From contig DASZPT010000089.1 in the NCBI GenBank assembly GCA_035549935.1, forward strand, positions 1 to 60,796: a stretch of 60,796 nt of DNA. Direction: 5' to 3'. This DNA comes from Gemmatimonadales bacterium. GTDB lineage: Bacteria > Gemmatimonadota > Gemmatimonadetes > Gemmatimonadales > GWC2-71-9. Under the pieces are notes generated by a model. That model saw only the letters and a list, made by a program, of their open reading frames with translations, ran no database searches and was not told the DNA's origin. Position 1 is the first letter of the stretch, and the number at the start of each line of letters is the position of its first letter. The translations under genes and the position numbers were made by a program. Shown here one piece after another: positions 12,923 through 55,240 of the stretch.

Positions 12923-12933
12923 AGCCGTTCTCC

Positions 12934-13953: not shown

Positions 13954-13959
13954 CCGGAC

Positions 13960-32032: not shown

Positions 32033-32926
32033 CTACCCTCCCTGTCGGACCAGGCCGAGCAGCTCGTCGACCACCGCCTCCGGCTGCTCCTCGTGAATAT
32101 GGAGGCCGGCGCCGTAGACGATCCGCTCGCGGATGTGCGGGATGCCGTGGGTCAGCGTGTGGATCCGCCCGCTGCTGGGCCCGCCGTCGTGCGCGGCCCC
32201 GCCCAGCATCAGCACCACCGGCACGTGGATCTCGGGCAGTCGGGGGCGGAGCGAGTCGGGCTCGACCGAGCGCTGCATCCCCTTGAGCGCCCGCAGTACC
32301 GCGCCCATGTCGCCGGCGGCGCCGTCGGTATAGCGGTCGATCAGCGAGTCGGTGACCCAGGTGGTGTCCCCCGAACTCGCGATCAGCCCCTTCCGCACTT
32401 CCTTCCTGATCCGGCCGCGTCCCGCGAAGAGCCGCACCAGGAACGAGAACTGCAGCGCCTTCTTCACCCCCGGCACCGCCGCGCTCTCGAGCGCGCCCCC
32501 CTCCACCAGCAGCAGCCCCTTCACCAGGTCCGGGCGCTGCAGCGCGAGGCGCAGCGCCACCGCGGTCCCGACCGCGTGGCCCATGATCACGGCGTGCCGG
32601 ATCCCGAGGGAATCCATCACCGCCGCGACCCGACGGGCCTGCGCGGTGTGCGAGTAGTCGGCGTTGCCCGGCCGTCCCGATGCGCCGACGCCGAGGGGCT
32701 CCACCACCACCGTCCTCACACCCGACTCGGCAAGCGGCGGGAGCACCTTCCGGAAGGCGTAGGCCGGGGAGACCAGCCCGGGGATGATGACCACCGCCGG
32801 GCCATTCGACGGGCCTACCGCGGTCACCTGCAGACTCTCGGCGGGAGCGACGGCCATGCGGCGGGCAAGGGAGTCCAGCGGGGTCGGCAGGTGGAGGGCG
32901 GCCGACAGGAGCAGGCTTACGATCAT
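32033..32926 (-). CDS. Alpha/beta-fold hydrolase-like protein with Ala at the nucleophile-elbow position
   Basis: Signal-like N-terminus MIVSLLLSAAL; VVIIPGLVSPAYAF; the elbow reads IMGHAVGTAVAL (G-H-A-V-G rather than G-x-S-x-G). Confidence 0.75.
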   Translation of the reverse strand: MIVSLLLSAALHLPTPLDSLARRMAVAPAESLQVTAVGPSNGPAVVIIPGLVSPAYAFRKVLPPLAESGVRTVVVEPLGVGASGRPGNADYSHTAQARRVAAVMDSLGIRHAVIMGHAVGTAVALRLALQRPDLVKGLLLVEGGALESAAVPGVKKALQFSFLVRLFAGRGRIRKEVRKGLIASSGDTTWVTDSLIDRYTDGAAGDMGAVLRALKGMQRSVEPDSLRPRLPEIHVPVVLMLGGAAHDGGPSSGRIHTLTHGIPHIRERIVYGAGLHIHEEQPEAVVDELLGLVRQGG

Positions 32927-33043
32927 GGGCCGGAATGTGACGGTGCCCGCTGGGTTCAGCAATCGCTGCCGGAAGAACGCGAAACGACACGTGGTCTAAT
33001 GACACGCATGGGCGTCGGAAAAGCCCGAGGGGGCGGCGAGGGA

Positions 33044-33224: not shown

Positions 33225-34007
33225 GTGACCAGGCCAATGGAATCCAGGACCCACGCTACTCGACAGACCGTGATCCTTGCCGCCGGCAACGGCTCGCGGC
33301 TCACCGCCCAGCGCGGCGAGCTGCCGAAGCCGCTGGTGCGGGTCGCGGGGCGTGCCCTGATCGACCATGCCCTGGACCAGGCGGTGGCGGCCGGCGTCGA
33401 GGAAGCCATCATCGTGACCGGCAAGTCGGCCGACCAGATGCGGGCCCACCTCGCGACGATCGAGACCCCGCTCAAGCTGACCCTGGTGCACAACGAGCGC
33501 TACCACGATCCCAATGGCGTGTCGCTGCTCTGTGCCGAACGGCATGTGACCGGCCCGTTCTTCCTCCAGATGGCCGATCACGTCTTTGCCCACCCGGTGC
33601 TCGAGCAGCTCGCGCGGGTCGAGGGTGAGGCCGCCGGGCAGTGCCGGCTGCTGGTGGATTTCCATCCGGTGAACCTGGACGAGGACGACGCGACCAAGGT
33701 CCGGGTGAGCGGCCATCGCATCACGGCGATCGGCAAGGATATCTATCCGTACGACGCGGTGGATACCGGCTGCTTCCGGCTCGACGCCCGGGTCTTCGAG
33801 GCGCTCCGCGCGGTGGCCCGCCGCGAGCCGCCCAGTGTCACCCTCGGCATGCGGCAGCTGCTGGCGGAGGGGGCCTTCTCGGCGGTGGCGCTCACCGGGG
33901 TGCGGTGGACCGACGTGGATACCCCGGAGGACCACGCCAAGGCGGAGATGCTGCTCACGGCCGCGCTCCGGCGCCGGGCCTCGATGGGTGTGACCGCGGC
34001 GGCCTAG
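33225..34007 (+). CDS. Sugar/alcohol-phosphate nucleotidyltransferase (NTP_transferase fold)
   Basis: G-loop ILAAGNGSRL...LPKPLVRVAGRALIDH. About 260 aa. Confidence 0.8.
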   Translation: MTRPMESRTHATRQTVILAAGNGSRLTAQRGELPKPLVRVAGRALIDHALDQAVAAGVEEAIIVTGKSADQMRAHLATIETPLKLTLVHNERYHDPNGVSLLCAERHVTGPFFLQMADHVFAHPVLEQLARVEGEAAGQCRLLVDFHPVNLDEDDATKVRVSGHRITAIGKDIYPYDAVDTGCFRLDARVFEALRAVARREPPSVTLGMRQLLAEGAFSAVALTGVRWTDVDTPEDHAKAEMLLTAALRRRASMGVTAAA

Positions 34008-34091: not shown

Positions 34092-34394
34092 ATGAGCTAT
34101 GGAAATGCCCTCACCGCCCTGGCCGATCCCACCCGGCGCCGCCTCTACGAGCGGCTCCGCCGCCGGCCCCACACTGTGGGCGAACTGGCTCGGCTCGCCC
34201 GCGTGTCGCAACCCGCCGTCTCCCAGCACCTCAAGGTGCTGAGCGGTGCCCGGCTCGTCTCCGTGCGCCCCGACGGCGTGCGGCGCTACTACCAGGCCAC
34301 CCCCGAGGGACTGCGGGACCTGCGCGCCTGGCTCGACGCGATGTGGGACGACGTGCTCTCGGCCTATGCCCGCGGGACCACCGATCCGACCTGA
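34092..34394 (+). CDS. ArsR/SmtB-family transcriptional regulator
   Basis: ALADPTRRRLYERL....HTVGELARLARVSQPAVSQHLKVL is the canonical winged-HTH signature. Confidence 0.9.
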   Translation: MSYGNALTALADPTRRRLYERLRRRPHTVGELARLARVSQPAVSQHLKVLSGARLVSVRPDGVRRYYQATPEGLRDLRAWLDAMWDDVLSAYARGTTDPT

Positions 34395-34404
34395 GGTACC
34401 CACC

Positions 34405-35106
34405 ATGACCACTCCCGGCCAGCCGCTGCCGCCGATCCACAAGACCATCACCGTGCCCTGGTCCCAGGACCGCGCCTTCCAGCGCTTCACCGCGGAGCTG
34501 GGCAGCTGGTGGCCCGCGCACGCCTACTCGGTCGGGCAGGCGCGGGTGCGCCGCTGCGCCCTGGAGGGTCGCGTGGGCGGAGAGATCTACGAGGAGTGGC
34601 AGGACGGGAGCCGACACGTGTGGGGGACGGTGCAGGTCTGGGACCCGCCGTCGAGGGTGGCCTTCAGCTGGCACCCGGGCCGGGAGGCGAGCACCGCACA
34701 ATCGATCGACGTCCGGTTCAGCCCGGCCGGCGCCGGTACCAGGCTCGACCTGGTGCACAGCGGGTGGGAGCACTATGGCGCCGACGCCGCCAAGGCCCAT
34801 CGCGGCTATCCACTCGGCTGGACCCACGTGCTCAACTGCTGGGCCGGCCGCCGCCATCACTGGGTGAACCTCACGATGAACGCGATCGTGCGGGTGATGG
34901 CGGTCCGCACACGGACCTGGCTGTGGCTTGCGCTGGTCCTGCTGGTGGGAAACGCGGTCGGCGGCTGGATCGCCTATGGCCGAGAGGAAATGCTGCACGG
35001 CCATCTGCACGTTGCCGCAACGGTCCTCTCGCTGGTCTGGCTCGGCTGGCTCGCTACCCGGCTGAAGGGGTCGGCTTCCGCGCCGGCGCCGGCGGGCCGA
35101 AGATGA
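34405..35106 (+). CDS. SRPBCC/AHSA1-like protein with a C-terminal two-TM extension
   Basis: IHKTITVPWSQDRAFQRFT..LG.WWP...GG.I.E.W.DG....WG.V..WDPP.R..F.W; tail WLWLALVLLVGNAVGGW...VLSLVWLGWLA. The usual ArsR partner. Confidence 0.75.
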   Translation: MTTPGQPLPPIHKTITVPWSQDRAFQRFTAELGSWWPAHAYSVGQARVRRCALEGRVGGEIYEEWQDGSRHVWGTVQVWDPPSRVAFSWHPGREASTAQSIDVRFSPAGAGTRLDLVHSGWEHYGADAAKAHRGYPLGWTHVLNCWAGRRHHWVNLTMNAIVRVMAVRTRTWLWLALVLLVGNAVGGWIAYGREEMLHGHLHVAATVLSLVWLGWLATRLKGSASAPAPAGRR

Positions 35107-36181
35107 GCCAGTGCACCCCGCTCGCGAGCCCGGAGAGGACGAAGATCCCGGTACACCAGGCGAGTGCCACCTGCATCACGCCGAGGAGGGCCGCCGGCAG
35201 GTAGAGGAAAGTGAAGAAATCGCGCCGGCCGGCCATCTCGAGGGTCTCCTTCACCTGGGTGAGGAACGACCGGTGCGCCGTGTGGTCGTGAGCGGACTCC
35301 CCGTGCTCCTTCTGTCCCCGCCACCGGATGCTCGCCACGCTCCCACTGCCGCCCCCACTCACGATGAGCGCGGCGTAGAGTGCCACCTGGTAGATCAGGT
35401 GCAGCACCGTGCCGACGATGGTCAGCATCCGCGCCGGTTCCCATCCCGCCTGGTAGAGCGCCCACCCTGTCGCCATGAAGAAGCCGAGGTTCACCACGTC
35501 GTCCACCACCTGGTCGAGCCACTCGCCCAGGCGGGAGCGGATGTACTTGAGACGCGAGATCTCGCCGTCGCACCCGTCGAGGATCGACTGGATCTGGAGC
35601 AGGAGGGCCCCGGGGATGAACCAGCTCGCGCCGCCCAGCGCCACGACCGCGATCGCGGCGAGCCCGAACACCGCGGCCACGACCGTCATCTGGTTCGGGG
35701 TGAGGCCGGTCTCGAGCAGCGAGCGGGTGACCCGGAGGGAGATTCTGCGGTTGATGGTGCGCGAGATCAGGCCATCGGTGCCCTTGAGGAGCGCGGCCAG
35801 CAGGAGATCCTCGGCCTGTACCAGCCCGGCGGCGTCGGTCGGGGCGACGACGAACTCGCCCGGCTTGAGCGGTGCCGCCTCGATATCGCCCCGGTAGCCG
35901 TCATCGACCAGTCGCTTGGGGAGGAGCCGGTGCCAGACGAGCCCTATCCTCGCCACCAGCACGCTCTCGGGATCCACGGTGTCGCCGGGACCCGTCGCCA
36001 GGAGCGGGATCCGGAGCCGTGGGTCGCGCGGGAAGCGGTCCGGGGCGAGGCCCTGGATCGCCACCTCCTCGATGCCGCCGTCCTGGAGCGACAGCAGCTG
36101 CCGCAGAAGAATCGTGAGTCCCGCGACATGCGCCTCGGGATCGCCGACGGCGGGCGCGGTGAGCGTGGCGCGCCGCTTCAC
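35054..36181 (-). CDS. CDP-alcohol phosphatidyltransferase with a degenerate nucleotidyltransferase-like N-terminal domain
   Basis: GTG start in a GTGA overlap (36178-36181). Motif LDGCDGEISRLKYIRSRLGEWLDQVVDD (DGx2-x-Rx8Gx3Dx3D with A->S). The N-terminal ~150 aa resembles an NTP-transferase core without the G-loop. Confidence 0.8.
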   Translation of the reverse strand: MKRRATLTAPAVGDPEAHVAGLTILLRQLLSLQDGGIEEVAIQGLAPDRFPRDPRLRIPLLATGPGDTVDPESVLVARIGLVWHRLLPKRLVDDGYRGDIEAAPLKPGEFVVAPTDAAGLVQAEDLLLAALLKGTDGLISRTINRRISLRVTRSLLETGLTPNQMTVVAAVFGLAAIAVVALGGASWFIPGALLLQIQSILDGCDGEISRLKYIRSRLGEWLDQVVDDVVNLGFFMATGWALYQAGWEPARMLTIVGTVLHLIYQVALYAALIVSGGGSGSVASIRWRGQKEHGESAHDHTAHRSFLTQVKETLEMAGRRDFFTFLYLPAALLGVMQVALAWCTGIFVLSGLASGVHWLIFGPPAPARKPTPSAG

Positions 36182-37101
36182 GCGGCGCGCTCCTTCGGCT
36201 CCTGGAGCATCAGGTAGGCGAGCAGGAGGTTGAAGACGGTCGCGGTCCCGGCGAAATAGAGGATCGGCGCCGGGGCCCACCAGTAGCCGGCGATCGCCGT
36301 CAGGTAGGCGAAGGCGAAGTGGGTGCCGATGCCCTGGAAGGTCCAGAGCCGCATGCGGCCCGCGTGGGTGGCGCGATAGGCCACCGGGTCCTCCGCCGGA
36401 CGGATCGTCATCGCGGCATGCTGGGCGCGGGAGTAGGCGAGGTAGACCCAGAGGAGGATGGCGTCGCGGTAGCGTCCCTCCCCGAGCGCGGTCCGGCGGT
36501 TGGCGTCGACCAGGTCCAGGTCCTCGTCGCGTTCGGCGTAGCCCCGGCCTACCCGCGCGATGTACCGGGTCTTGGCGTGATCGAAGAGCGCGGACTGCAC
36601 CGCCGAACTGGCGATGCCGGCGAGCCCGACCAGCCAGAGGAGCGGCTTCCCGGTATGCCCAACCATGTAGATGGTCCCGCCGATGCCGAGCGAGATCCCG
36701 ACGGCATAGTCGCCGATGCCGTCCAGGATCGCCCCGTAGGTCGAGGAAATCTTCTTCCGCCGGGCGAGCTGGCCGTCGCAGCAATCGAGGACCACCGCGG
36801 CGAAGAGCAGGCCGCCGGTGAGCAGCAGCCGGTCGGGCCGGCCGACACTCATGCCGAGGAGGATGCCCGCCACCACGCCGACGAGGGCGGCGAAGAGCGT
36901 GACCTGGTTGGGTGTGACGGGTGTGTGGACGAGGAGATCGACGATCCGGCGGGCGATGGGGCGGTGCAGGTACTCGTCGACCAGTTCCTCGACCTCGGGC
37001 GGCTTGGCCGGCACCGCCGTCACCACGTCACCGGGCGAAGCGGGCCCGGGCGTCTTCGAGGTCGGCGAGGTCATCGATCTCGGTCCATTCCTGGTGGCCA
37101 A
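36178..37101 (-). CDS. CDP-alcohol phosphatidyltransferase
   Basis: Motif LDCCDGQLARRKKISSTYGAILDGIGD; multiple TM helices. Start ambiguous: ATG 37101/37074 overlap the upstream gene, while GTG 37026 lies 1 nt after the upstream stop. Confidence 0.8.
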   Translation of the reverse strand: MATRNGPRSMTSPTSKTPGPASPGDVVTAVPAKPPEVEELVDEYLHRPIARRIVDLLVHTPVTPNQVTLFAALVGVVAGILLGMSVGRPDRLLLTGGLLFAAVVLDCCDGQLARRKKISSTYGAILDGIGDYAVGISLGIGGTIYMVGHTGKPLLWLVGLAGIASSAVQSALFDHAKTRYIARVGRGYAERDEDLDLVDANRRTALGEGRYRDAILLWVYLAYSRAQHAAMTIRPAEDPVAYRATHAGRMRLWTFQGIGTHFAFAYLTAIAGYWWAPAPILYFAGTATVFNLLLAYLMLQEPKERAA

Positions 37102-37777
37102 TCGAAACGGTCTGGAAGCTAACGCCGGCCTGCATCATCCGCTGGAAGGCGTCCTCGTAGTAGCCGGTCGTGTCCCCCGACTCGCGCATCGCCTCGAGGG
37201 TGGCCCAGAGGATCGGGAGGGCGGGGCCCCCCACCTTCTGCACCCCGATCGACTCGCCGGCGGCCTCGGTGGGGGGCACCTGCTTCGAGAGGCGCCGCAC
37301 GTTGCCGCGGTCGTCGAGCTGGGCCTTCATCTCCTCCTCGCCGAGGCGGGTCTCGGTGTCGAGGAGGAGGCCACAGGGCGAGGGCAGCTCCACCAGGCGG
37401 CGGAGCGCGTCACCGGTCAGCACCACGTCGCCGTCGCAGAGCACGATACCGCGTCCGGTGACCCGGGTGCGGGCGGCGAGCACGCTCATGCAGTTGCCGG
37501 TGGTGGCGAAGTCGGGGTTGGGCGCGAGTGCCACCTCGATCGGCGGCGGATGGCGGTGCAGGTGCTCCTCCACCCGGTCGGCGAGGTAGCCGGTGACGAT
37601 CACGGCGCGGGTGATACCGGCGGCGGCGATCCGCTCGAGCTGCCGGGCGAGGATCGTCTGGCCGCCGACATCGAGCAGGCACTTGGGAGTCTGCTCCGTG
37701 AGGGGCCGGAGCCGGGTGCCGGTGCCCGCCGCGAGGATGATGGCCTCGCAGGCGAGCCCCGGCGATGGAGAGGACAT
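37028..37777 (-). CDS. LicC/PntC-like cytidylyltransferase (NTP_transferase fold)
   Basis: G-loop AIILAAGTGTRLRPLTEQTPKCLLDVGGQTIL. 249 aa. Starts 2 nt after the aminotransferase stop. Confidence 0.85.
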   Translation of the reverse strand: MSSPSPGLACEAIILAAGTGTRLRPLTEQTPKCLLDVGGQTILARQLERIAAAGITRAVIVTGYLADRVEEHLHRHPPPIEVALAPNPDFATTGNCMSVLAARTRVTGRGIVLCDGDVVLTGDALRRLVELPSPCGLLLDTETRLGEEEMKAQLDDRGNVRRLSKQVPPTEAAGESIGVQKVGGPALPILWATLEAMRESGDTTGYYEDAFQRMMQAGVSFQTVSIGHQEWTEIDDLADLEDARARFAR

Positions 37778-37779
37778 GC

Positions 37780-38967
37780 TCAACGCCGCGGCAGCTCCGC
37801 GATGTCCGAGAGGGTCTCGAGGAAGCGGTCGATCGTCTCCACGCCGATGTCGCCCATGTTGGCGATGAGGAAGCAGTCGTGCGAGAGGGGGCCCTTGCCG
37901 CGATAGACCAGGAAGCCCCGCTGCCGGAGGTCGTGGTAGAGCGAATCGAAGGAGATCCCGGTCGGGAGCGGCGACACGGTGAGCGAGGCGGCCGTGGCGG
38001 GACCGTCGAAGCGGGGCTTGAGACCCAGCCCCTGGAGGCCCGCGCGGAGCCGGGCGTTGAGCGCCCGGTAGGTCGCGCGCCGGGCCGCGACGCCGCCCTG
38101 TTCCTCCAGCTCGTGGAGGGCGGCCTCGAGGGCGACCACCGCGGGCACGGCCGGGGTGAAGGGCGTCTGCCCGTTGTCCCGCTGGGCGGCGCGATAGCGG
38201 CGGAGGTCGAGGTACATCGAGCGGGGCCGGACGTGCTCGGTCTCGCTCCAGATCTCGGGCCGGGTGATCACGAAGGCCGCGCCGGCCACGCCGTGGAGGC
38301 ACTTGTTCGAGCTGCCGATCACCACCGACGCGCGCGACTTCGCCATGTCGAACTCTTCGGCGCCGAGGCTCGAGACCACGTCGACGAAATAGCGGAGGTG
38401 CCGGGGCGCGAGCAGGCGCCCGATCTCGTTCACCGGATTGAGCCGGCCCACGCTGGTCTCGTGGTGCACCATCGCCACCGCGCGGATCCGCGGGTCGCCA
38501 TCGAGCATCCCCTGGACCTGCTCCAGCACGATGGGTTCTCCCCAGTCGTATCGGAGATGGCTCATCGAGATCCCGAGGCACTGGGCCATCTCGGCGATCC
38601 GTTCGCCGAACGCGCCGTTGGAGACCACCAGCAGCCGCTCATCGGAGCCGACGAAGGTGGCGAGTGCCGCCTCGGTCGCAGCGGTGGCGCCGCCCCCGAC
38701 CACGAGCACATCGTGCCCGGGGGCCATCGCGACCCGCCGGAGCCGCGCGATCACCCGCGAAAGGACCTCGACGAAGGCCCGGTCACGGTGGGCGATATCG
38801 GCACTGGCCAGCGCTTCCTTCACCCGGGCCGAGGTGCTGACCGGGCCGGGGCAGAGGAGGGTCAACTCGGCTTCAGAGGGCGCGGAGCTGGGAAGAATTG
38901 CCCTGACCGTGTCGCCTTCTGCCCGCCGAGTACGTGTCAGGCTGTCCAGCGCGGCGTGTGCTTTCAT
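37780..38967 (-). CDS. Class-V aminotransferase, PhnW-like (2-aminoethylphosphonate:pyruvate transaminase family)
   Basis: Blocks recalled from PhnW: L.PGP...S..VKEA; VVSNGAFGERIAEMA; MVHHETSVGRLNP; SSNKCLHGVAGAAFVI (PLP Lys); GGVAARR; FLVYRGK...DCFLIANMG. Confidence 0.8.
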   Translation of the reverse strand: MKAHAALDSLTRTRRAEGDTVRAILPSSAPSEAELTLLCPGPVSTSARVKEALASADIAHRDRAFVEVLSRVIARLRRVAMAPGHDVLVVGGGATAATEAALATFVGSDERLLVVSNGAFGERIAEMAQCLGISMSHLRYDWGEPIVLEQVQGMLDGDPRIRAVAMVHHETSVGRLNPVNEIGRLLAPRHLRYFVDVVSSLGAEEFDMAKSRASVVIGSSNKCLHGVAGAAFVITRPEIWSETEHVRPRSMYLDLRRYRAAQRDNGQTPFTPAVPAVVALEAALHELEEQGGVAARRATYRALNARLRAGLQGLGLKPRFDGPATAASLTVSPLPTGISFDSLYHDLRQRGFLVYRGKGPLSHDCFLIANMGDIGVETIDRFLETLSDIAELPRR

Positions 38968-39112: not shown

Positions 39113-40327
39113 CTAGCGGCCCAGTGACCAGCGTCCCACCTCGGCCAGCCAGCGGCCGAGACGCCAGGGGTCGGGAGTCGCGGGCTCGGCTTTCGCCCCG
39201 AGGCGCTCCCCGATGAACCGGCTGATCCGCTCGGCGCGCGCGTCCCAGGTGAGGCCTTCGGCGGTCCGCCGCGCGCCGTCGGCCAGACGAGCCGCCTCCT
39301 CGGGAGTTGCAGCGAGCCGCCGGAGCCGGGCCACGGTGCCGGGGACGTCGCCGGGGGCGACCAGCGCGGCATTCCCGCCGTCGACGAGGAGCTCGGCGGT
39401 GTCGGGTGCGACCGGCGCCAGGACCACGCGGCCGGCGGCCAGGTACAGGAACAGCTTGATCGGGAGCACGGTGTTCCCGTGCCGTTCGAGCGGGGCCAGG
39501 CTCGGCGGAATGCACAGGACATCGGCGGCGTAGAGCCAGGGTGCGAGCTCGGTGAACCGCTGCCAGGGCACCACCCGCACATTGGCGAGCGAGCGCGCCT
39601 CCCGTTCCACCGGGCCCTCGCCCTCCGAGCCGACGAGGACGAAGGTGAACTCGGGGGCCTGCCGGGCACATTCCAGGATGATGTCGAGCCCCTTCCGCTG
39701 GTTCATGCGGCCGCTGTAGACCACCGTGAACCGTCCGGCCTCGAGGCCGAGGTGGGCGCGTGCCTCCTCGCGGGAGAGGCGGGGTTCCATCCGGGCCGGG
39801 TCCCAGCCATTGTGCGCCACGAGCAGGCGGGATTCGGGAACGCCGAGACGCAGGTAGCTTTGCAGCGCATGCTGGGAGTGGAACACCGCGCCCACCAGGT
39901 TCGGATGGCGCAGGATGTGCCGCAGCACCGGCTGCAGCGGCGGGTGCTGGTCGCCCCAGGGGCGGAAGTGCTCGTAGACGACGCGCCGGCCGGCCCGGAG
40001 CACGCTCCAGGCGGCGGGCAGGTTCCGGGTGTAGACCAGGTCGGCCGCGGCGACGAGGGGATGGCGCGCGGCGCGGAGCGCGTGGGACCACTTCTCCAGG
40101 CCGCGGAGCCCGTGATACCGGTAGCGGAGCAGCTCCACCCGGAACTCGCCCCGGACCTGGTAGTACCGGCGCAGGGCCTCGGCATCGCCGGGGCCGCTCC
40201 GCGCCCCGGGGAGCAGCAGGCTCAGCGAGAGCCCCTGGCGCGAGAGCGCGGCCACGGTGTTGACCACCTGTTCGGTGTCGGCACCAGTGCCGGGGAGGAG
40301 CGCGTCGTAGAGATACAGGATGTGCAT
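39113..40327 (-). CDS. GT4 (group 1) glycosyltransferase
   Basis: MHILYLYD...GADTEQ; C-terminal GRMNQRKG...E(x7)E-like block. Confidence 0.85.
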   Translation of the reverse strand: MHILYLYDALLPGTGADTEQVVNTVAALSRQGLSLSLLLPGARSGPGDAEALRRYYQVRGEFRVELLRYRYHGLRGLEKWSHALRAARHPLVAAADLVYTRNLPAAWSVLRAGRRVVYEHFRPWGDQHPPLQPVLRHILRHPNLVGAVFHSQHALQSYLRLGVPESRLLVAHNGWDPARMEPRLSREEARAHLGLEAGRFTVVYSGRMNQRKGLDIILECARQAPEFTFVLVGSEGEGPVEREARSLANVRVVPWQRFTELAPWLYAADVLCIPPSLAPLERHGNTVLPIKLFLYLAAGRVVLAPVAPDTAELLVDGGNAALVAPGDVPGTVARLRRLAATPEEAARLADGARRTAEGLTWDARAERISRFIGERLGAKAEPATPDPWRLGRWLAEVGRWSLGR

Positions 40328-40446: not shown

Positions 40447-41880
40447 ATGAAGCGTGGCCTCTGGTGGATGGGCGGGGCGACGCTCGCCATGCGGCTCCTC
40501 GACGTGGGCGGCACCCTGATCGTGCTCCAGTTCCTGGGCCCAGGGGAGATCGGCATCGCCACGCTGGCGTGGAGCCTCGCGGTGGCGATGGAGGCGTTCA
40601 ACGGCCTCGGGGTGGGCCAGGTCCTGGTGCGCCAGAAGGAGATGACGCACGCCGAGCTGTCCGGGCTCTTCTGGTTCTGCACCCTGCTCGGCGTGGCGGC
40701 GACGGCGGTGATGGGCGCGGTGGCGCCCTTCGTCGCGGTCTTCTACGGCAACTGGCGTCTCTACCCGATGATCGTGGTCGCGGCGACGAAGCTCATCTTC
40801 GTGGGCGCGGCCCTGGTGCCGCTCCAGGTCCTGACTCGCGACCTCGACTTCAAGACCTCGGGTGCGGCCCAGACCCTGGCCACCCTGGGCGAGTCGCTGA
40901 CCAAGGTGGCGCTGGTGGTCGCGGGGATGGGGGCGTGGGGGTTGGTGCTCGCCAACGTGGGCCGGGGACTCTACCTCTACCTCGCGCTCCAGTGGCTCGC
41001 GCCGTTCCGCCCGTCGCTCACCGCGGCGGACGCCTCCACCCGGCGGTCGATCCGCTTCGGTCTGCGGGTCGCGGCGGGGAGCATCATCTACCAGATCTAC
41101 CGCAACATGGACTTCCTGCTGGTGGGCCGGTTCCTCGGCACCAGCGCGGTCGGCATTTACCGGGTGGCGTGGGACCTCGGCATGACCCCGCTCGAGATCG
41201 TGGTCAACCTGGTGAACCGGGTGCAGTACCCGATCTACGCCAAGCTGCAGGAGCATGCGCAGGAGCTGAGGGCGGCGTTCTACCGGAGCGCCCAGTCGCT
41301 CCTCCTCACGCTCGGACCGGTGGTCGCGCTGATCTGCTTCGCGAGCCCGGACATCCTCCGCCTGATCGGGCACGGGAAGTGGCTCGCGGCGGCGCCGCTG
41401 GTGCAGATCCTGGTCTGGGCGAGCCTCCTGCGCGGGATCGCCCAGCTCTTCCCCGCCCTCTACATCGCGACCGGCCATCCGCACTACTCGGTCTACGACT
41501 CGATCGTCACCGGCGGCACCCTGGTGGTGGGGTTCCTCCTGGCCCTCATCCTCGCGCCGGCGGAGACCGCCACCCACTGGGTGGCGCTGGTCTGGCTCCT
41601 GAGCTACCCGGTTGCGCTGGCGCTTCACTTCTCGCTGGCGCGCCGTACCGCGCCGATCGGCCCGCTCAGCATGGGCCGGAGCCTCGTCCCGGCGGCCCTC
41701 GGGCTCGGACTGCTGTCGCTGGTGCTCGGGGCGGTCTCGCTGCTCCGCCCCACGCTCGGCTCGCCGGTGGCGATGCTGGTGCTTCTCATCGTGCTCGGTC
41801 TCGGGACGTATTTCCTGTTCCTCCGCAAGGTCCTGCATCTCACGCCGGGGCACCTGCTGCCCCGCCGGGAGGAGAGCTGA
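40447..41880 (+). CDS. MOP/Wzx-type polysaccharide flippase
   Basis: 477 aa, about 12-14 TM; the N-terminus KRGLWWMGGATLAMRLLDVGGTLIVLQFLGPGEIGIATLAWS is typical of PST-family flippases. Confidence 0.85.
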   Translation: MKRGLWWMGGATLAMRLLDVGGTLIVLQFLGPGEIGIATLAWSLAVAMEAFNGLGVGQVLVRQKEMTHAELSGLFWFCTLLGVAATAVMGAVAPFVAVFYGNWRLYPMIVVAATKLIFVGAALVPLQVLTRDLDFKTSGAAQTLATLGESLTKVALVVAGMGAWGLVLANVGRGLYLYLALQWLAPFRPSLTAADASTRRSIRFGLRVAAGSIIYQIYRNMDFLLVGRFLGTSAVGIYRVAWDLGMTPLEIVVNLVNRVQYPIYAKLQEHAQELRAAFYRSAQSLLLTLGPVVALICFASPDILRLIGHGKWLAAAPLVQILVWASLLRGIAQLFPALYIATGHPHYSVYDSIVTGGTLVVGFLLALILAPAETATHWVALVWLLSYPVALALHFSLARRTAPIGPLSMGRSLVPAALGLGLLSLVLGAVSLLRPTLGSPVAMLVLLIVLGLGTYFLFLRKVLHLTPGHLLPRREES

Positions 41881-41881
41881 C

Positions 41882-42781
41882 GTGCTCGGTGTAGTGGGGG
41901 ACTGGATCCGGAAGCTGGAGGTGCGGCTCAACCGTCCCCTCCGTCCGCTCCCGCCGGCGCAGGCCTTCTGGTCGCTCTACCAGGAGGACGGCCGGGCGCT
42001 TGCGTCGCCGCCGGCGTCGCTCCAGGAGGGTGGGCCCTGCGACCTTCTGATCGCGGTCACCACCTACAACCGCGCCGCGAGCGTGGGCCGGGTGCTCGCG
42101 GCACTGCCCGAGGCGCTGGCGGCGCTGGGGCGGCCGCTCCGCGTGCGGCTGGTGGTCCTGCAGGACGGGGCGGAAGGGGACTACGGCGCGACACGGGAGC
42201 TGGCGCGCGGGCTCTTCGGCGACCGGGTCACCTGGCTCACCGCCCGCGAGCGGCTGGGGAAGAAGGGGTACTGGAAGGCGTACCAGACGCTCTTCCTCGC
42301 GGCGCGGCTCCTCCGTCCGGCCTACGCCCTCTTTCTGCAGGACGATCTCGAATTCGAGCCGGGATTCCTGCGGGAGTGCTTCCGGCGCTGGGACGCGCTG
42401 GCGAAGGACCACCGGCGCCGGGTGCTGTACCTCTTCGCGTCGGCGGATGACGAGCCGGAGGGACGGTGGGTGAGGTTCCGGCGGCGGGAGGCGGAGGACG
42501 GGGCCCGGCTCACGAAGTGGTTCGACCTGCAGGGGTACTTCGTGGATGGGGCGTTCTTCGAGCTCCTGGGGTACCGGATGTTTCCGATCTCGGAGCGGCG
42601 CTGGCGGACCGCGCACTACTCGAGCGGGGTGGGGGAGCAGCTCACCCGCCGGCTCTTCCCGCGGGCCAGCGTCTACCAGGCCCATCCCTCGCTGGTCTAC
42701 CACGGCGCGCACCGGAGCGAGATGAACCCCGAGGCCCGCGCGGCCCGCTCGCTCGACAACCGGCCTAGCGGGAGCGGCTGA
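41882..42781 (+). CDS. Putative GT-A-fold glycosyltransferase, family uncertain
   Basis: GTG start with GGGAGGAGAG upstream. Contains LLIAVTTYNRAASVGRVL... and ...FLQDDLEF (DxD-like). Confidence 0.55.
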   Translation: MLGVVGDWIRKLEVRLNRPLRPLPPAQAFWSLYQEDGRALASPPASLQEGGPCDLLIAVTTYNRAASVGRVLAALPEALAALGRPLRVRLVVLQDGAEGDYGATRELARGLFGDRVTWLTARERLGKKGYWKAYQTLFLAARLLRPAYALFLQDDLEFEPGFLRECFRRWDALAKDHRRRVLYLFASADDEPEGRWVRFRRREAEDGARLTKWFDLQGYFVDGAFFELLGYRMFPISERRWRTAHYSSGVGEQLTRRLFPRASVYQAHPSLVYHGAHRSEMNPEARAARSLDNRPSGSG

Positions 42782-43505
42782 GCCGGATCAGTCCCTTCTC
42801 GGTCTCGAAGTACTCCCGGGTCCACCCCGGGAACTGCGCCATCCACTGGCGCACCATCTCCTGCTCGTCGCGACGGCGGGCATCATCCACCAGCACCACG
42901 CAATCCGGGCCGAGCCGGTCGGCGAGCTGCGGCATGGCGGGGAGCCGCGCGAGCGGCTGGTCACTGCCGGGCGGCCCGTCCACGAGCAGCATCCCGATCT
43001 CGGCGCCGGACTCCTGGATCGCGGCGCGGATGATGGTGGGGTCGTACCACTGGCCGCGATGTCCGCCACTCTGTACCGGGACGAGCGGCGCGTGGACCAG
43101 CTTCACGCGGTGGGCGAGCCCGTGGGTGGCGAGCAGCGCCTGGGTCGCGTCCCGGAAGCGGGCCTCGTGGTCCACCGAGATGATCTGGCACTTCCCGACG
43201 CGCTCGGCACCGTACGCCGCGATCACGGTCGAGATGCCGCTCCCCAGCTCCACGATCAGGGGCGGCTGCCGCGCCAGCACGGTGTGGATCACGTGGCGGA
43301 GCAGCTCCGGCGTCGCCATGTACGGCTGGATCAGGGGGAGCGGCACGCGCGGCTCGATCACGCTGTAGATCGCGAGCCAGGACTCGGTGCGGCGGTAGCG
43401 GATGTCGCTCTCGCGCTGGACCGACGTCACCACCGAGCGGAGGGCGACGAACATGCCGCCCGCGATCAGGGCGAGGGTGCCAATCACCAGCAGCCAGTCG
43501 GGCAT
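42765..43505 (-). CDS. Class I SAM-dependent methyltransferase with an N-terminal TM anchor
   Basis: Motif I IVELGSGISTV and later LLVDGPPG (Methyltransf_24-like). Confidence 0.7.
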   Translation of the reverse strand: MPDWLLVIGTLALIAGGMFVALRSVVTSVQRESDIRYRRTESWLAIYSVIEPRVPLPLIQPYMATPELLRHVIHTVLARQPPLIVELGSGISTVIAAYGAERVGKCQIISVDHEARFRDATQALLATHGLAHRVKLVHAPLVPVQSGGHRGQWYDPTIIRAAIQESGAEIGMLLVDGPPGSDQPLARLPAMPQLADRLGPDCVVLVDDARRRDEQEMVRQWMAQFPGWTREYFETEKGLIRLSRSR

Positions 43506-43587
43506 GGGACACGGGCCTCGGGGTGGACGAACTGGGCAACAACTTGGCCGGTTCGGGGCGAATCCGCCACGCCGCGCCCGGCCCGGC

Positions 43588-45093
43588 TCAGCTGACCTGC
43601 TGGAGGGCGAGGCTGGCGTGGATCCAGCGCGCGGCGTCCTGCAGTGTGAAGGTCCCGTCCCGGGCCTCCTCGCCGGTACGCTGGAGGAGGGAGAGGTCGC
43701 GCCCGGTTTCGAGGACGAGGAAGGGGACGAGCCCGGGGCTGCCGGCCGGCCGGCTCCGGTACCCGGTTCCCCGGTGCTCGAGTCCGCTGGCGCGGCTTCC
43801 GTAGAGCACGACGGTGGTCTCCGCCGGCAGGGCGGCGAGGTAGTGCCCGATCGCCTGGTCGACGTAGTGCATCACGTCGAAATACTGCTCCGCCTGGTCG
43901 GTGGCGCCGGGGAAGAAGCGGGCGAGCCCCCGGTCGTAGTTGCGGAAGAGGGGCTGGCTGGTGGCGGTGATGGCGAGCTGGAACTGGCGGCCGCTCCGCG
44001 CGGCGAAGTCCATCGCGGCGAACTGCAGCAGGTCGTCGTCCGGGACGCTCCAGCCGGCGAGCGGTGTCGGCCCCAGCGCCTCGAACTCCTCCCGGAAGAT
44101 GAGCCGCTCGAACCCCATCCGCGCGAAGGCCGAGCGCCGGCCGAAGACGTCCCCCGAGGCGCCATGGATCGCGGTGGTGCCGAAGCCCATCGCGGTCATG
44201 CGCTGGACGATGGTGTCGGTCCAGGGATAGCCGCGAATCTTGTAGGTCGGGACATCCGCCGAGGGCGTCCGGCCGGTGAGCAGGATGAAGTCGGCGTCGG
44301 AGCTGCCGAGGCAGCGCTCGGGGCGAACGGCGTAGCGCATCGCGCGGCGGGCCTGGGCATTGAGCTGGGGGGTGACCTCCTGGCCGCGGATCCGGAAGTC
44401 GAGCACCGCCCAGTCGAGCCGCTCCACCTGGAGAAAGACCATCCAGTGCGCGATCGGCGCCGGGGTCTCGACCGGGGTGAGCCGGTCGCTCCCTTCACCA
44501 GCGCGGGCGAGGGCCCGCTCGAGGAGGCGGGTCGGTTCGGTCCAGCGGTACTCGGCGGCCCAGGCGGGGAGGTAGCCGTAGACCGCGCCGAGTCCACCGA
44601 CGGTCTCCCACGCGGCGATGCGACCGAGCGGGCGGTACTGTGCGTTCACCACGACGAGGAGCAGCAGCCAGGCGCCGAGGGCCAGGGTCCCGGTGCTCCG
44701 ATCGGGCCCCGCGTGGACCAGGCCGAAGAGGAGCAGGAGCTTGAGGAGGTACGAGGCGAGCAGGACCAGGTGTGACGGCACGAGGCCGGCGCGCGTGATC
44801 GCGGTCAGCGGCGCCCCCTCCGGGCGGCGGAGCAGTACCAGTACCGAGAGCGGTTGGCGGCAGGTCTCGTAGTAGACCATCGCGACGAGATAGAACAGCG
44901 CCGAGCCCGCGAACCAGAACGGCAGGAGGAGCCGGGGCAGGAAGGCGACGAGCGCGGTGAAGGCGCAGAGATCGAACGCGAAGCGGAGCCCCCGGTCGAG
45001 GATGGGATCGACCTGCCCCTGCGCCTGGGGCGACATGAGGGTGCGCTCCTGGACGAGCCACGCCTCGATCGCGCACCAGAGGACCAGGATCAT
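43588..45093 (-). CDS. LtaS/EptA-like sulfatase-fold membrane protein with degenerate metal-binding residues
   Basis: N-terminal polytopic region. FLQVERLDW aligns with FLQLETFRG of the 46229 paralog, but YGSRASGLEH replaces MGDHGYNLGEH. Confidence 0.7.
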   Translation of the reverse strand: MILVLWCAIEAWLVQERTLMSPQAQGQVDPILDRGLRFAFDLCAFTALVAFLPRLLLPFWFAGSALFYLVAMVYYETCRQPLSVLVLLRRPEGAPLTAITRAGLVPSHLVLLASYLLKLLLLFGLVHAGPDRSTGTLALGAWLLLLVVVNAQYRPLGRIAAWETVGGLGAVYGYLPAWAAEYRWTEPTRLLERALARAGEGSDRLTPVETPAPIAHWMVFLQVERLDWAVLDFRIRGQEVTPQLNAQARRAMRYAVRPERCLGSSDADFILLTGRTPSADVPTYKIRGYPWTDTIVQRMTAMGFGTTAIHGASGDVFGRRSAFARMGFERLIFREEFEALGPTPLAGWSVPDDDLLQFAAMDFAARSGRQFQLAITATSQPLFRNYDRGLARFFPGATDQAEQYFDVMHYVDQAIGHYLAALPAETTVVLYGSRASGLEHRGTGYRSRPAGSPGLVPFLVLETGRDLSLLQRTGEEARDGTFTLQDAARWIHASLALQQVS

Positions 45094-49373: not shown

Positions 49374-49470
49374 GACGGCTCCTCTCGCGGGAAACAGTGC
49401 TGCCGGGCAGGTATTCTAATGCAGGCGGGCCGCCCTTATCATTACGCCGCCCCTGCATCCGGAGCCGGTT

Positions 49471-55151: not shown

Positions 55152-55240
55152 AGCGCCTCCGTCCTCGGCGGTGAAGCGGTATTCTATATTGTGAGTGTTC
55201 CTTCAGACCGGTCCGCTCTCCCACCCGAGGTCTCCTGCGA

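What the first reader, a model, noticed from the sequence alone, without database searches (positions are those of the whole stretch)
35054..38967. PhnW-like aminotransferase + LicC/PntC-like cytidylyltransferase + two tandem CDP-alcohol phosphatidyltransferases: candidate pathway installing an aminophosphonate (or amino-alcohol phosphate) head group
Seen in the sequence: four minus-strand genes are coupled by a 2-nt gap, a near-abutting or overlapping junction, and a GTGA overlap. The first protein shares, block for block, the motifs I recall from 2-aminoethylphosphonate:pyruvate transaminase PhnW, including SSNKC..GV.G..FVI with the PLP lysine. The second has the LAAGxGxRL G-loop of LicC-type cytidylyltransferases. 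The last two carry the DG(x)2AR...G(x)3D(x)3D CDP-alcohol transferase motif.

Established knowledge: PhnW-type transaminases paired with PntC cytidylyltransferases make CMP-2-aminoethylphosphonate in phosphonate tailoring clusters. CDP-alcohol transferases move the activated head group onto diacylglycerol or another alcohol.

Inference: this operon activates AEP, or a related amine such as serinol phosphate, and transfers it in two steps to lipid and/or glycan acceptors. That would produce a phosphonolipid or phosphonoglycan. Bacterial enzymes for the transfer step are, to my knowledge, poorly defined. Caveat: no PEP mutase or phosphonopyruvate decarboxylase is present in this window.
Basis: partly seen in the sequence, partly recalled or inferred. 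Interest (0 to 1): 0.72.

Follow-up and report, generated by a model that had tools for sequence, protein, structure and literature searches.

The report
Phosphonate-like head-group operon without phosphonate genes
This conserved Gemmatimonadales operon looks like the machinery bacteria use to attach aminoethylphosphonate to their surface, but it belongs to a widespread, uncharacterised sister system that is never linked to the C-P bond-forming enzyme and probably activates and transfers an ordinary amino-alcohol phosphate instead.

Summary
In detail: there are four translationally coupled minus-strand genes. They encode a class-V PLP enzyme (A), a LicC/PntC-type cytidylyltransferase (B) and two CDP-alcohol phosphotransferases (C, D).

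The cassette is larger than reported. An IPCT-like cytidylyltransferase (33225-34007) and a GT4 glycosyltransferase (39113-40327) travel with it in Gemmatimonadota.

The aminophosphonate reading is not supported.
- A belongs to a distinct clade (NJ bootstrap 98/100), placed beside true AEP transaminases with weaker support.
- All 82 members examined lack the canonical substrate-binding arginine (Leu or Gln instead). It is present in 29 of 30 ppm-linked transaminases and in 3 of 3 crystallised PhnW enzymes.
- No PEP mutase motif occurs in 1.25 Mb around 82 loci from three phyla. The same test found 198 of 199 control PEP mutase loci.
- A real Gemmatimonadales phosphonate cluster exists elsewhere, with its own arginine-bearing transaminase only 38% identical to A.

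C and D belong to the AF2299/DIPPS branch, which uses soluble CDP-alcohol donors.

Best reading: a Ppm-independent, Kennedy-type pathway with two modules. One is A+B+C, for an amino-alcohol phosphate. The other is the IPCT-like enzyme plus D, for a polyol phosphate. Together they build a phosphodiester head group on a lipid or glycan. The substrate is unresolved and the system is uncharacterised.

The parts
37780..38967 (-). A: class-V PLP enzyme. It belongs to a family placed beside AEP transaminase and lacks the canonical Arg (L367).
   Evidence: PF00266. TIGR03301 gives 313.9 bits against a cut-off of 360.8. PhnW 1m32 matches at 7.8e-59. Position 367 is L or Q in 82 of 82 members. Clade bootstrap is 98/100.
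37028..37777 (-). B: LicC/PntC-type cytidylyltransferase with an intact G-loop and a conserved acidic pair (D115, E208), which suggests an amine-bearing phospho-substrate.
   Evidence: PF12804 and PF00483. 6pd1 matches at 4.3e-13 over residues 11-241, and LicC 1jyk at 4.5e-12. D115 and E208 are present in 35 of 35 Gemmatimonadota orthologues, at the positions of Tde-PntC E104 and E196 (residue roles from PMC6697681).
36178..37074 (-). C: CDP-alcohol phosphotransferase of the AF2299/DIPPS-like branch, without an N-terminal domain. The start is ambiguous (37026, 37074 or 37101).
   Evidence: PF01066 at 1.3e-11. AF2299 4o6m matches at 6.1e-14. The full D(x)2DG(x)2AR(x)8G(x)3D(x)3D motif is present. 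pgsA gives only 23 bits against a cut-off of 109.
35054..36181 (-). D: two-domain CDP-alcohol phosphotransferase with the AF2299 architecture (an N-terminal alpha/beta cytosolic domain plus a six-helix catalytic domain).
   Evidence: AF2299 matches at 2e-21 and IPCT-DIPPS at 1.3e-16. The AF2 model has pLDDT 84. Foldseek's top hit is 4o6n, full length, with TM 0.61/0.68, followed by 4mnd. NF041135 gives 100.5 bits over positions 210-348.
33225..34007 (+). NT2: IPCT-like cytidylyltransferase and a conserved partner of the cassette. It is the probable donor-maker for D.
   Evidence: NF041135 gives 153.7 bits over the whole IPCT half, positions 2-220. A. fulgidus IPCT 2xme matches at 6e-30. At the two PntC amine-contact positions it has M and T, and IPCT likewise has M at the first. 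It is syntenic in Gemmatimonadota and moves with the cassette in L029 and L033.
39113..40327 (-). GT4 glycosyltransferase immediately upstream of A and co-directional with it, with a 145-nt gap.
   Evidence: Pfam GT1/GT4 domains. It lies within 3 kb of A in 24 of 25 Gemmatimonadota loci.
40447..41880 (+). Wzx/MOP-family flippase, divergent from GT4. It is a frequent but not universal neighbour.
   Evidence: PF13440 at 6.7e-53. It lies within 8 kb of A in 14 of 25 Gemmatimonadota loci and 9 of 23 loci from other phyla.
32033..32962 (-). Alpha/beta-hydrolase, a conserved neighbour beyond NT2 in Gemmatimonadota. Whether it belongs to the pathway is uncertain.
   Evidence: PF00561. It is syntenic in nearly all Gemmatimonadota loci and lies directly after D in L033.

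Best explanation
The locus encodes a Ppm-independent, Kennedy-type (CDP-alcohol) head-group pathway. It is an evolutionary sister of the bacterial phosphonate-tailoring module and has two activation/transfer modules.

Module 1 (A, B, C):
- The PLP enzyme A makes a small amine-bearing phosphate ester from a central metabolite.
- B condenses that ester with CTP to give a CDP-amino-alcohol.
- C transfers the phospho-amino-alcohol to an acceptor hydroxyl, releasing CMP.

Module 2 (NT2, D): this is a split version of archaeal IPCT/DIPPS.
- The IPCT-like NT2 makes a CDP-polyol, such as CDP-inositol or CDP-glycerol.
- The AF2299-like D transfers the polyol phosphate.

The GT4 adds a sugar. The product is a membrane-anchored or exported phosphodiester-linked glyco/amino head group on a lipid or a lipid-linked glycan.

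What is shown:
- the enzyme families, intact catalytic motifs and operon coupling;
- conservation of the six-gene unit;
- A's distinct clade and its missing arginine;
- the absence of Ppm near any family member.

What is inferred:
- The order of steps and the pairing of NTases with transferases.
- The substrate identities. My ranking for A's product is phosphoethanolamine, for example by decarboxylation of O-phosphoserine (~0.3); serinol phosphate or another amino-polyol phosphate by transamination (~0.3); AEP (~0.1); something else (~0.3).
- The acceptor.
For: A is AEPT-like but is not an AEPT:
- It falls below all three PhnW/AepZ cut-offs.
- Its clade is monophyletic at 98/100 bootstrap.
- The Arg equivalent to PhnW's 'FRIGN' is Leu in 39 of 39 Gemmatimonadota members and Gln in 41 of 43 members from Myxococcota and Acidobacteriota. 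It is Arg in 29 of 30 ppm-linked AEPTs and in 3 of 3 PhnW structures.
- A keeps the PLP Lys and Asp, and the HR(D/E), W142 and E204 features that ppm-linked AEPTs share. This is consistent with a similar small phospho-amine ligand.

Gene context:
- None of 82 family loci (1.25 Mb) has an EDKxxxxxNS ORF, whereas 198 of 199 control loci do. NTase and CDP-OH transferase are present in 25 of 25 Gemmatimonadota loci with flanks.
- The same association is seen in Myxococcota and Acidobacteriota, together with MMPL, MlaC, OEP, Wzx, HAD and methyltransferase genes.
- A genuine Gemmatimonadales phosphonate cluster is a different locus in an assembly that was not among the A-bearing ones recovered. It contains a Ppm-NTase fusion (390 bits), Ppd (403 bits) and an Arg-bearing AEPT that scores 356 bits and is 38% identical to A.

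The other enzymes:
- B keeps the acidic pair that contacts the AEP amine in Tde-PntC, while NT2 has M/T, like IPCT at the first position.
- NT2 matches A. fulgidus IPCT at 6e-30.
- D has the sequence and predicted fold of AF2299/DIPPS, and C's best match is also AF2299. These enzymes use soluble CDP-alcohol donors.

Precedents:
- T. denticola PntC-AEPT (PMC6697681).
- The proposed NTase + CDP-alcohol transferase + HAD route to inositol lipids in Bacteroidetes (PMC9246714).
Against: - No substrate was determined.
- Whole-genome absence of ppm and ppd in the A-bearing genomes could not be shown.
- The ppm-linked Gemmatimonadales AEPT itself scores just under the TIGR03301 cut-off (356.1 against 360.8), so the cut-off failure alone is weak evidence.
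- The role assigned to the missing Arg rests on general knowledge of fold-type-I aminotransferases and on sequence alignment, not on a structure of A.
- No myo-inositol-phosphate synthase is in the window, so the inositol assignment for NT2/D is by homology only.
- The trees are NJ only. The sister relation to AEPT has only 56-61/100 support.
- A lipid rather than glycan or soluble acceptor is suggested only by neighbours (Wzx, MMPL, MlaC).
Confidence: 0.6

Rival explanations
1. A is an AEP transaminase fed by PEP mutase and phosphonopyruvate decarboxylase encoded elsewhere in the genome. B makes CMP-AEP, and C/D install AEP on lipid or glycan, giving a phosphonolipid or phosphonoglycan.
For: - A's best family and structure hits are PhnW/AepZ.
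- B's best solved relative is PntC-AEPT 6pd1.
- AEPT + PntC + CDP-OH transferase triads exist in real Ppm loci (PMC8942020).
- A shares HR, W142 and E204 with ppm-linked AEPTs.
- Ppm does occur in the phylum.
- Genome-wide absence of ppm was not demonstrated.
Against: - None of 82 loci has Ppm within about 10 kb, whereas about two-thirds of PntC genes lie within five genes of ppm (PMC6697681). In my control set, AEPT-like genes sit beside Ppm in 61 of 199 short windows.
- A's clade is separate (98/100) and universally lacks the Arg that ppm-linked AEPTs keep.
- The two Gemmatimonadota Ppm loci found are in assemblies that were not among the A-bearing ones recovered, and they carry their own AEPT.
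Confidence: 0.12
2. The genes make a soluble phosphodiester compatible solute, analogous to di-myo-inositol phosphate, glycerophosphoinositol or diglycerol phosphate of hyperthermophiles. Here it would carry an amino-alcohol, and it would not be a membrane or surface head group.
For: - NT2 and D are the closest bacterial look-alikes of archaeal IPCT and of DIPPS/AF2299, whose known products are soluble.
- A HAD phosphatase lies in some related loci.
Against: - The unit is embedded in, and syntenic with, a polysaccharide locus with Wzx, GT and LtaS-like genes.
- In other phyla it lies beside MMPL, MlaC and OEP exporters.
- Two transferases plus a GT4 are more than a solute needs.
- These are mesophilic soil and water MAG lineages.
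Confidence: 0.1
3. This is ordinary phospholipid synthesis. C and D would be PgsA/PssA/PIP-synthase-type enzymes using CDP-diacylglycerol, as JGI names them, and A and B would be unrelated neighbours.
For: - JGI annotates D orthologues as phosphatidylglycerophosphate synthase.
- There are weak hits to PIP and AIP synthase models.
Against: - pgsA, pssA and PIPS models score far below their cut-offs: 23 against 109, 18-20 against 107, and 40 against 170 bits.
- The best sequence and fold matches are AF2299 and DIPPS.
- There is 2-nt and 4-nt translational coupling with A and B.
- A + NTase + CDP-OH transferase are associated across three phyla.
Confidence: 0.05

Closest known systems
Phosphonate-tailoring (Pnt) module: AEP transaminase + PntC cytidylyltransferase (for example the T. 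denticola Tde1415 fusion, PDB 6pd1), with a CDP-OH transferase in 'group 1 phosphonolipid' clusters
   Same: The three enzyme families are homologous and adjacent. The logic is the same: a PLP enzyme, then CMP/CDP activation, then transfer. B keeps the amine-contacting acidic pair. A shares the HR, W142 and E204 features with ppm-linked AEPTs.
   Different: There is no Ppm or Ppd in any of the 82 loci. A is a separate clade lacking the canonical Arg and having W240, F120 and V173. C and D did not group with the ppm-linked transferases in a rough NJ tree. An additional IPCT-like NTase, a second transferase and a GT4 are present.
Archaeal IPCT/DIPPS (A. fulgidus AF0263, PDB 4mnd/2xme) and AF2299 (PDB 4o6m)
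   Same: NT2 aligns over the whole IPCT domain (6e-30). D has the AF2299 two-domain architecture and the DGCDGEI(A/S)R motif. C's best match is also AF2299. These are CDP-alcohol transferases with soluble donors.
   Different: The two activities are split into separate, divergently oriented genes. The hosts are bacterial mesophiles. The genes are coupled to a PLP enzyme, a second NTase and a GT4. No MIPS is nearby. All models score far below the equivalog cut-off.
Kennedy-type CDP-alcohol pathways in bacteria: Lic/CDP-choline, and the proposed NTase + CDP-alcohol transferase + HAD 'alternative' inositol-lipid route of Bacteroides/Prevotella (PMC9246714)
   Same: An NTase activates a phospho-alcohol, and a CDP-alcohol phosphotransferase moves it to a lipid or glycan acceptor. 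Related loci sometimes include a HAD phosphatase.
   Different: The precursor is made in-cluster by a PLP enzyme rather than imported or phosphorylated by a kinase. There are two modules in one unit. None of the enzymes has been characterised.
C. jejuni HS:2 capsule enzymes Cj1437 (DHAP to serinol-P transaminase) and Cj1436 (phosphoserine to phosphoethanolamine decarboxylase), and RtxA of Bradyrhizobium
   Same: These are precedents for PLP enzymes that make small amino-alcohol phosphates for surface glycans from central metabolites (PMC11800397; PMC3222319).
   Different: In C. jejuni the products are joined by ATP-dependent amide ligation, not CDP activation. Sequence relatedness to A could not be tested, because the sequences and the paper are not held.

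Membership tests
2-aminoethylphosphonate transaminase (PhnW/AepZ) | Scores above the curated equivalog cut-offs | tested here: not met
   TIGR03301 gives 313.9 against 360.8, NF010006 gives 251.8 against 296, and TIGR02326 gives 243.5 against 400.8. Caveat: a ppm-adjacent Gemmatimonadales AEPT scores 356.1, also just under the cut-off.
2-aminoethylphosphonate transaminase (PhnW/AepZ) | PLP-binding Lys and the pyridine-N Asp of fold-type I | tested here: met
   K222 (SSNKC) and D196 are invariant and align with the PhnW residues.
2-aminoethylphosphonate transaminase (PhnW/AepZ) | Canonical C-terminal Arg ('FRIGN', PhnW R340) that binds the substrate's anionic group | tested here: not met
   It is L367 in the window. 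In the family it is L in 39 of 39 and Q in 41 of 43 members, so 0 of 82 have Arg. It is Arg in 29 of 30 ppm-linked AEPTs and in 3 of 3 PDB PhnW structures.
2-aminoethylphosphonate transaminase (PhnW/AepZ) | Genomic linkage to ppm/ppd (biosynthetic) or to phosphonatase (catabolic) | tested here: not met
   None of 82 loci has the Ppm motif in 1.25 Mb, against 198 of 199 control loci. The window has no ppm or ppd. The HAD in L078 hits phosphoglycolate-phosphatase models, not PhnX.
2-aminoethylphosphonate transaminase (PhnW/AepZ) | Catalyses AEP + pyruvate <-> phosphonoacetaldehyde + Ala | not testable with these tools
   This needs an enzyme assay.
PntC/LicC-type phospho(no)-amine cytidylyltransferase | NTP_transf_3 fold with an intact GxGxR(L)...PK loop and metal-binding Asp | tested here: met
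   LAAGTGTRLRPLTEQTPK is present and D117 is invariant.
PntC/LicC-type phospho(no)-amine cytidylyltransferase | Acidic residues at the amine-contact positions (Tde-PntC E104/E196; LicC D105/D192) | tested here: met
   D115 and E208 are present in 35 of 35 Gemmatimonadota orthologues, and D/E occur in other phyla. Residue roles are from PMC6697681. The equivalence rests on sequence alignment only.
PntC/LicC-type phospho(no)-amine cytidylyltransferase | Substrate preference (AEP versus P-choline versus other) | not testable with these tools
   B is about equally distant from 6pd1 (52 bits), MurU 4y7t (51 bits) and LicC 1jyk (49 bits).
CDP-alcohol phosphotransferase (PF01066) | D(x)2DG(x)2AR(x)8G(x)3D(x)3D motif in a polytopic membrane domain | tested here: met
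   C has the exact motif. D has Ser in place of Ala, and this Ser is invariant in its orthologues. Both pass the Pfam cut-off.
AF2299/DIPPS subgroup (soluble CDP-alcohol donors) | Closest sequence and fold relatives are AF2299/DIPPS rather than CDP-DAG enzymes, with an N-terminal cytosolic domain (D) | tested here: met
   D matches 4o6m at 2e-21, and Foldseek gives 4o6n TM 0.61/0.68 over the full length, ahead of PIPS. C matches 4o6m at 6e-14. Donor specificity itself was not tested.
IPCT/DIPPS di-myo-inositol-phosphate system | IPCT-type NTase plus DIPPS-type transferase plus an inositol-1-phosphate supply (MIPS) | tested here: inconclusive
   NT2 scores 153.7 bits over the IPCT half and D scores 100.5 bits over the DIPPS half of NF041135, whose cut-off of 580 applies to the fused protein. 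No MIPS is in the window.

The most novel reading that the evidence does not exclude
The A/B/C(+NT2/D/GT4) unit defines an uncharacterised bacterial head-group pathway found in roughly 600 or more species-level genomes of Gemmatimonadota, Myxococcota and Acidobacteriota.

It would be an evolutionary offshoot of phosphonate tailoring that abandoned C-P chemistry. Its PLP enzyme lost the keto-acid-binding arginine. It may have changed reaction type, for example to an O-phosphoserine decarboxylase feeding a bacterial CDP-ethanolamine (Kennedy) route. Alternatively it may make a new amino-polyol phosphate.

The final product would be a so-far undescribed phosphodiester-linked amino-alcohol/inositol glycolipid or glycan decoration.
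Probability: 0.35. Interest if true: 0.75.

Novelty: new variant of a known kind. Interest (0 to 1): 0.55.

Why it matters
Automated annotation calls these proteins '2-aminoethylphosphonate-pyruvate transaminase' (JGI names). Surveys that count PhnW-like genes could therefore overestimate phosphonate metabolism in soil and sediment phyla.

If the reading here is right, three abundant and poorly cultured phyla share an unstudied Kennedy-type route to an envelope head group. That would give lipidomics and glycobiology a concrete gene-to-molecule target.

It would also show how a phosphonate-tailoring module was re-used for phosphate-ester chemistry. The marker is a single diagnostic residue change (Arg to Leu or Gln), which can be used to separate the two families in databases.

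Tried and rejected
- **Ppm motif scan.** I scanned the window and every fetched locus for the Ppm motif. All were negative.
- **Whole-genome ppm test.** I used a two-motif DNA pattern scan and then a relative search with the Gemmatimonadales Ppm it recovered. They show only that the two Gemmatimonadota Ppm loci found are not in A-bearing assemblies, and they do not show that ppm is absent. All four genome scans are now used.
- **NTase::A fusions in Myxococcota.** I considered these as evidence that A's product feeds an IPCT-like NTase. I rejected this because the fused G-loop is degenerate in Kofleriaceae (HAVVLATRLALESG) and lacks the Lys in L081.
- **Zn-dependent dehydrogenase next to L081/L077 fusions.** I considered this as evidence for an alcohol to ketone to amine route. 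It is a generic MDR/quinone-oxidoreductase-like protein and is absent from Gemmatimonadota, so I gave it no weight.
- **NJ tree of CDP-OH transferases.** This was meant to decide whether C or D pairs with A/B. D groups with AF2299/DIPPS and C forms its own clade, but the tree is unsupported and not decisive.
- **Cj1437 (serinol-P transaminase).** Its paper is not held, so I could not compare it with A.
- **Literature search.** Searches for CDP-serinol, phosphatidylserinol, bacterial CDP-ethanolamine routes and Gemmatimonadetes phosphonates found nothing describing this system.
- **Promoter and terminator scan.** It gave nothing above shuffled expectation.
- **L035-L052 loci.** These class-V enzymes are 26-33% identical to A. 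They are an unrelated Arg-bearing group and served only as an outgroup.

Full report
**Source and gene calls**

The window is about 70% G+C. The aminotransferase gene has orthologues that are 74-89% identical in many Gemmatimonadales MAGs, so it comes from Gemmatimonadales.

Real genes were picked by third-position GC. The many long antisense ORFs are artefacts of the high GC content.

**The observation**

Four minus-strand genes occupy 35054-38967.

- A (38967..37780, 395 aa) is a class-V PLP protein (PF00266). It contains GSSNKCLHGVAGAAFVI.
- B (37777..37028, 249 aa) is an NTP_transf_3 / NTP_transferase protein with the loop ILAAGTGTRLRPLTEQTPK.
- C (start 37074, 37026 or 37101, ending at 36178) and D (36181..35054, 375 aa) both pass PF01066.
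- C carries the exact D(x)2DG(x)2AR(x)8G(x)3D(x)3D motif.
- D carries the same motif with Ser in place of Ala, and this Ser is invariant in its orthologues.

- A/B is TGA-gc-ATG, a 2-nt gap.
- B/C is either a 1-nt gap or a 47-nt overlap, depending on the start chosen.
- C/D is a GTGA overlap.
- No terminator-like site lies between the genes.

**The unit is larger than reported**

tblastn of the window's proteins against 38 Gemmatimonadota loci shows a common order:

GT4 - A - B - C - D - (optional ArsR + AHSA1) - NT2 on the opposite strand - alpha/beta hydrolase - DinB.

- NT2 (33225-34007) is a second cytidylyltransferase.
- In the two most divergent loci (L029, L033) NT2 sits upstream of GT4 instead, so it moves with the cassette.
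- Among the 25 loci with at least 4 kb on both sides of A, an NTase lies within 3 kb in 25, a CDP-OH transferase within 6 kb in 25, and GT4 within 3 kb in 24.
- The region upstream of GT4 is a variable polysaccharide locus. In the window it holds a Wzx flippase, a GT2-like protein, a methyltransferase, two LtaS/sulfatase-type proteins, a GT4 and a GDSL protein. In a relative it holds NeuB, a CMP-sugar synthase and a pyruvyl transferase.

**What A is**

A's best family hits are the PhnW/AepZ models, but all three are below their curated cut-offs:

| Model | Score (bits) | Cut-off (bits) |
|---|---|---|
| TIGR03301 | 313.9 | 360.8 |
| NF010006 | 251.8 | 296 |
| TIGR02326 | 243.5 | 400.8 |

Its best solved relative is Salmonella PhnW, 1m32, at 7.8e-59.

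Residue-level comparison:

- A keeps the PLP Lys and Asp.
- PhnW's 'DCFRIGNIG' arginine is replaced, giving 'DCFLIANMG'. By established knowledge of fold-type-I aminotransferases this arginine binds the anionic group of the substrate, and it corresponds to AspAT Arg386.

To obtain a proper comparison set I recovered genuine PEP mutase loci from the genome collection, using a two-motif DNA pattern (DTGxG ... EDKxxxxxNS). This gave 120 loci. A follow-up search with a Gemmatimonadales Ppm gave 80 more.

In the resulting alignment:

- Ppm-adjacent transaminases have Arg at the critical position in 29 of 30 cases.
- The A family has Leu in 39 of 39 Gemmatimonadota members and Gln in 41 of 43 members from Myxococcota and Acidobacteriota. 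That is 0 of 82 with Arg.
- The A family also has its own W240, F120 and V173.
- It shares HR(D/E)60-62, W142, E204 and TP268-269 with the ppm-linked enzymes.

Neighbour-joining trees give a consistent picture.

- The A family is a monophyletic clade with 98/100 bootstrap support.
- It sits beside the clade of ppm-linked AEPTs plus catabolic PhnW. Support for that arrangement is only 56-61/100.
- A Myxococcota member matches the P. horikoshii class-V enzyme 2dr1 as well as it matches PhnW.

A is therefore AEPT-like, and I do not file it as an AEPT.

**Context test for phosphonate chemistry**

- None of the 82 A-family loci contains an ORF with the Ppm signature. These comprise 38 Gemmatimonadota loci and 44 from other phyla, 1.25 Mb in total.
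- The same scan detects the signature in 198 of 199 control loci.
- The window itself has no Ppm, Ppd or MIPS.
- By contrast, Rice et al. report that about two-thirds of phosphonate cytidylyltransferase genes lie within five genes of ppm (PMC6697681).

A bona fide Gemmatimonadales phosphonate cluster does exist, on the complete chromosome CP070829.1. It contains:

- a Ppm-NTase fusion (TIGR02320, 390 bits);
- Ppd (TIGR03297, 403 bits);
- an Arg-bearing AEPT that scores 356 bits and is only 38% identical to A;
- a further NTase and an ATP-grasp protein.

Neither this assembly nor the only other Gemmatimonadota Ppm hit (JAOTVA01) is among the assemblies found to carry the A cassette.

**B and NT2**

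- B's best solved relative is the T. denticola PntC-AEPT fusion (6pd1, 4.3e-13, aligned over residues 11-241). LicC (4.5e-12) and MurU are equally close.
- In Tde-PntC, E104 and E196 contact the AEP amine, and LicC has Asp at both positions (PMC6697681).
- At the aligned positions the B family has D115 and E208 in 35 of 35 Gemmatimonadota members, and D or E in other phyla.
- NT2 has Met and Thr at those positions. A. fulgidus IPCT likewise has Met at the first.
- NT2 aligns over the whole IPCT domain (2xme, 6e-30; NF041135, 153.7 bits over positions 2-220).

This suggests that B handles an amine-bearing phospho-compound and NT2 a neutral polyol phosphate. It is an inference from sequence alignment.

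**C and D**

- Both match AF2299 and IPCT-DIPPS best. D gives 2e-21 and 1.3e-16; C gives 6e-14.
- The pgsA, pssA and PIP-synthase models score far below their cut-offs.
- An AlphaFold model of D (pLDDT 84) matches AF2299 over its full length (TM 0.61/0.68), ahead of DIPPS and the PIP synthases.
- The match includes the N-terminal alpha/beta domain, which resembles a remnant nucleotidyltransferase fold.

These enzymes form the branch of the family that takes soluble CDP-alcohols as donors. NT2 + D therefore look like a split IPCT/DIPPS.

**Distribution and partners in other phyla**

- Outside Gemmatimonadota it occurs in Kofleriaceae, Haliangiales, Polyangia and Acidobacteriota. There too it lies beside B-like NTases and D-like CDP-OH transferases and Wzx.
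- L078 has three CDP-OH transferases, two NTases, a HAD, a GT2, a methyltransferase and an MMPL exporter.
- L055 has MMPL, MlaC and an outer-membrane factor next to A.
- Most Myxococcota homologues are about 620 aa, with an N-terminal NTase-like domain. This is the same architecture as Tde1415, but the G-loop is degenerate, so I draw no mechanistic conclusion from the fusion.
- The homologous triad AEPT + NTase + C/D-like transferase occurs in 24 of 199 real Ppm loci. It corresponds to the predicted 'Burkholderiales_CDP-OH' phosphonolipid clusters (PMC8942020).

The window's cassette is thus the Ppm-less counterpart of a known phosphonate-tailoring arrangement.

**Mechanism proposed**

Shown:

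- enzyme families with intact catalytic motifs;
- translational coupling;
- a conserved six-gene unit;
- a distinct PLP-enzyme clade that lacks the arginine and is never linked to Ppm.

Inferred:

- A makes a small amino-alcohol phosphate from a central metabolite.
- B converts it to a CDP-amino-alcohol, and C transfers it.
- NT2 makes a CDP-polyol, and D transfers that.
- GT4 adds a sugar.
- The product is a membrane or surface head group, handled by Wzx- or MMPL-type exporters.

The loss of the keto-acid-binding arginine, together with retention of the HR motif, fits phosphoethanolamine as the product. By analogy with phosphoserine aminotransferase, the HR motif could bind a phosphate. Phosphoethanolamine is the O-ester isostere of AEP. 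It could be made by decarboxylation of O-phosphoserine rather than by transamination. Serinol phosphate from DHAP, or another amino-polyol phosphate, is about equally possible. I cannot discriminate among these with the tools available.

**Comparison and novelty**

The system works like a Kennedy-type or phosphonate-tailoring pathway combined with a split IPCT/DIPPS. It fails the membership tests for AEPT on cut-offs, the arginine and ppm linkage.

The literature I could search describes neither this family nor CDP-serinol or bacterial CDP-ethanolamine routes of this kind.

I rate it a new variant of a known kind. It is of moderate interest and is testable with straightforward biochemistry. 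It also has a practical consequence for annotation, because JGI labels these proteins '2-aminoethylphosphonate-pyruvate transaminase'.

Noticed in passing
window 13954-15474 (+): An acyltransferase carries a eukaryote-type GPAT C-terminal domain (PF19277, 81.6 bits) plus PF01553. It sits beside LemA, an M48 peptidase and a cyanophycinase-like S51 peptidase. This is an unusual glycerol-3-phosphate/DHAP acyltransferase type for a bacterium.
   Followed up: no
window 19712-24870 (-): A 1198-aa protein made almost entirely of HEAT repeats lies next to a GT2 chitin/cellulose-synthase-like glycosyltransferase. A response-regulator/HisKA protein lies downstream.
   Followed up: no
window 34092-35106 (+): An ArsR-family regulator plus an AHSA1/SRPBCC protein form a variable insertion between D and NT2. 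It is present only in the window and in L001, L004 and L014 (L053 is the same contig as L014). The AHSA1 and D coding regions overlap convergently by about 53 nt.
   Followed up: partly
window 42765-49415: The variable polysaccharide part of the locus holds a Methyltransf_24 protein, two LtaS/sulfatase-type membrane proteins (43588-45093 and 46229-48337), a GT4 and a GDSL protein. The sulfatase-family proteins could themselves be phosphoglycerol or phosphoethanolamine transferases.
   Followed up: no
L224 (CP070829.1, Gemmatimonadales chromosome) 8352-14289: This is a genuine phosphonate biosynthesis cluster in the same order. It contains a Ppm-NTase fusion, Ppd, an Arg-bearing AEPT, a PntC-like NTase and an ATP-grasp protein. 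The AEPT scores 356.1 bits, just under the TIGR03301 cut-off, which suggests the cut-off is slightly too strict.
   Followed up: yes
L081 9125-11125; L091 9308-11191; P0243 and about 100 other ~620-aa proteins: Myxococcota homologues of A are fused to an N-terminal NTase-like domain whose nucleotide-binding G-loop is degenerate (for example HAVVLATRLALESG). It is probably a non-catalytic domain, reminiscent of the N-terminal domain of AF2299 and of D.
   Followed up: partly
L065 14831-15922; L078 16378-17466; L091 18548-19675; L094 ~20074: A second, more distant class-V paralogue (27-30% identical to A) recurs 5-9 kb downstream of A in Myxococcota loci, next to an MMPL transporter. It also has Gln at the Arg position, and Tyr at position 204.
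   Followed up: no
window 53427-55046 (+): A B12-binding radical-SAM protein lies next to a molybdopterin-dependent oxidoreductase (55195-57963). Neither is related to the finding.
   Followed up: no
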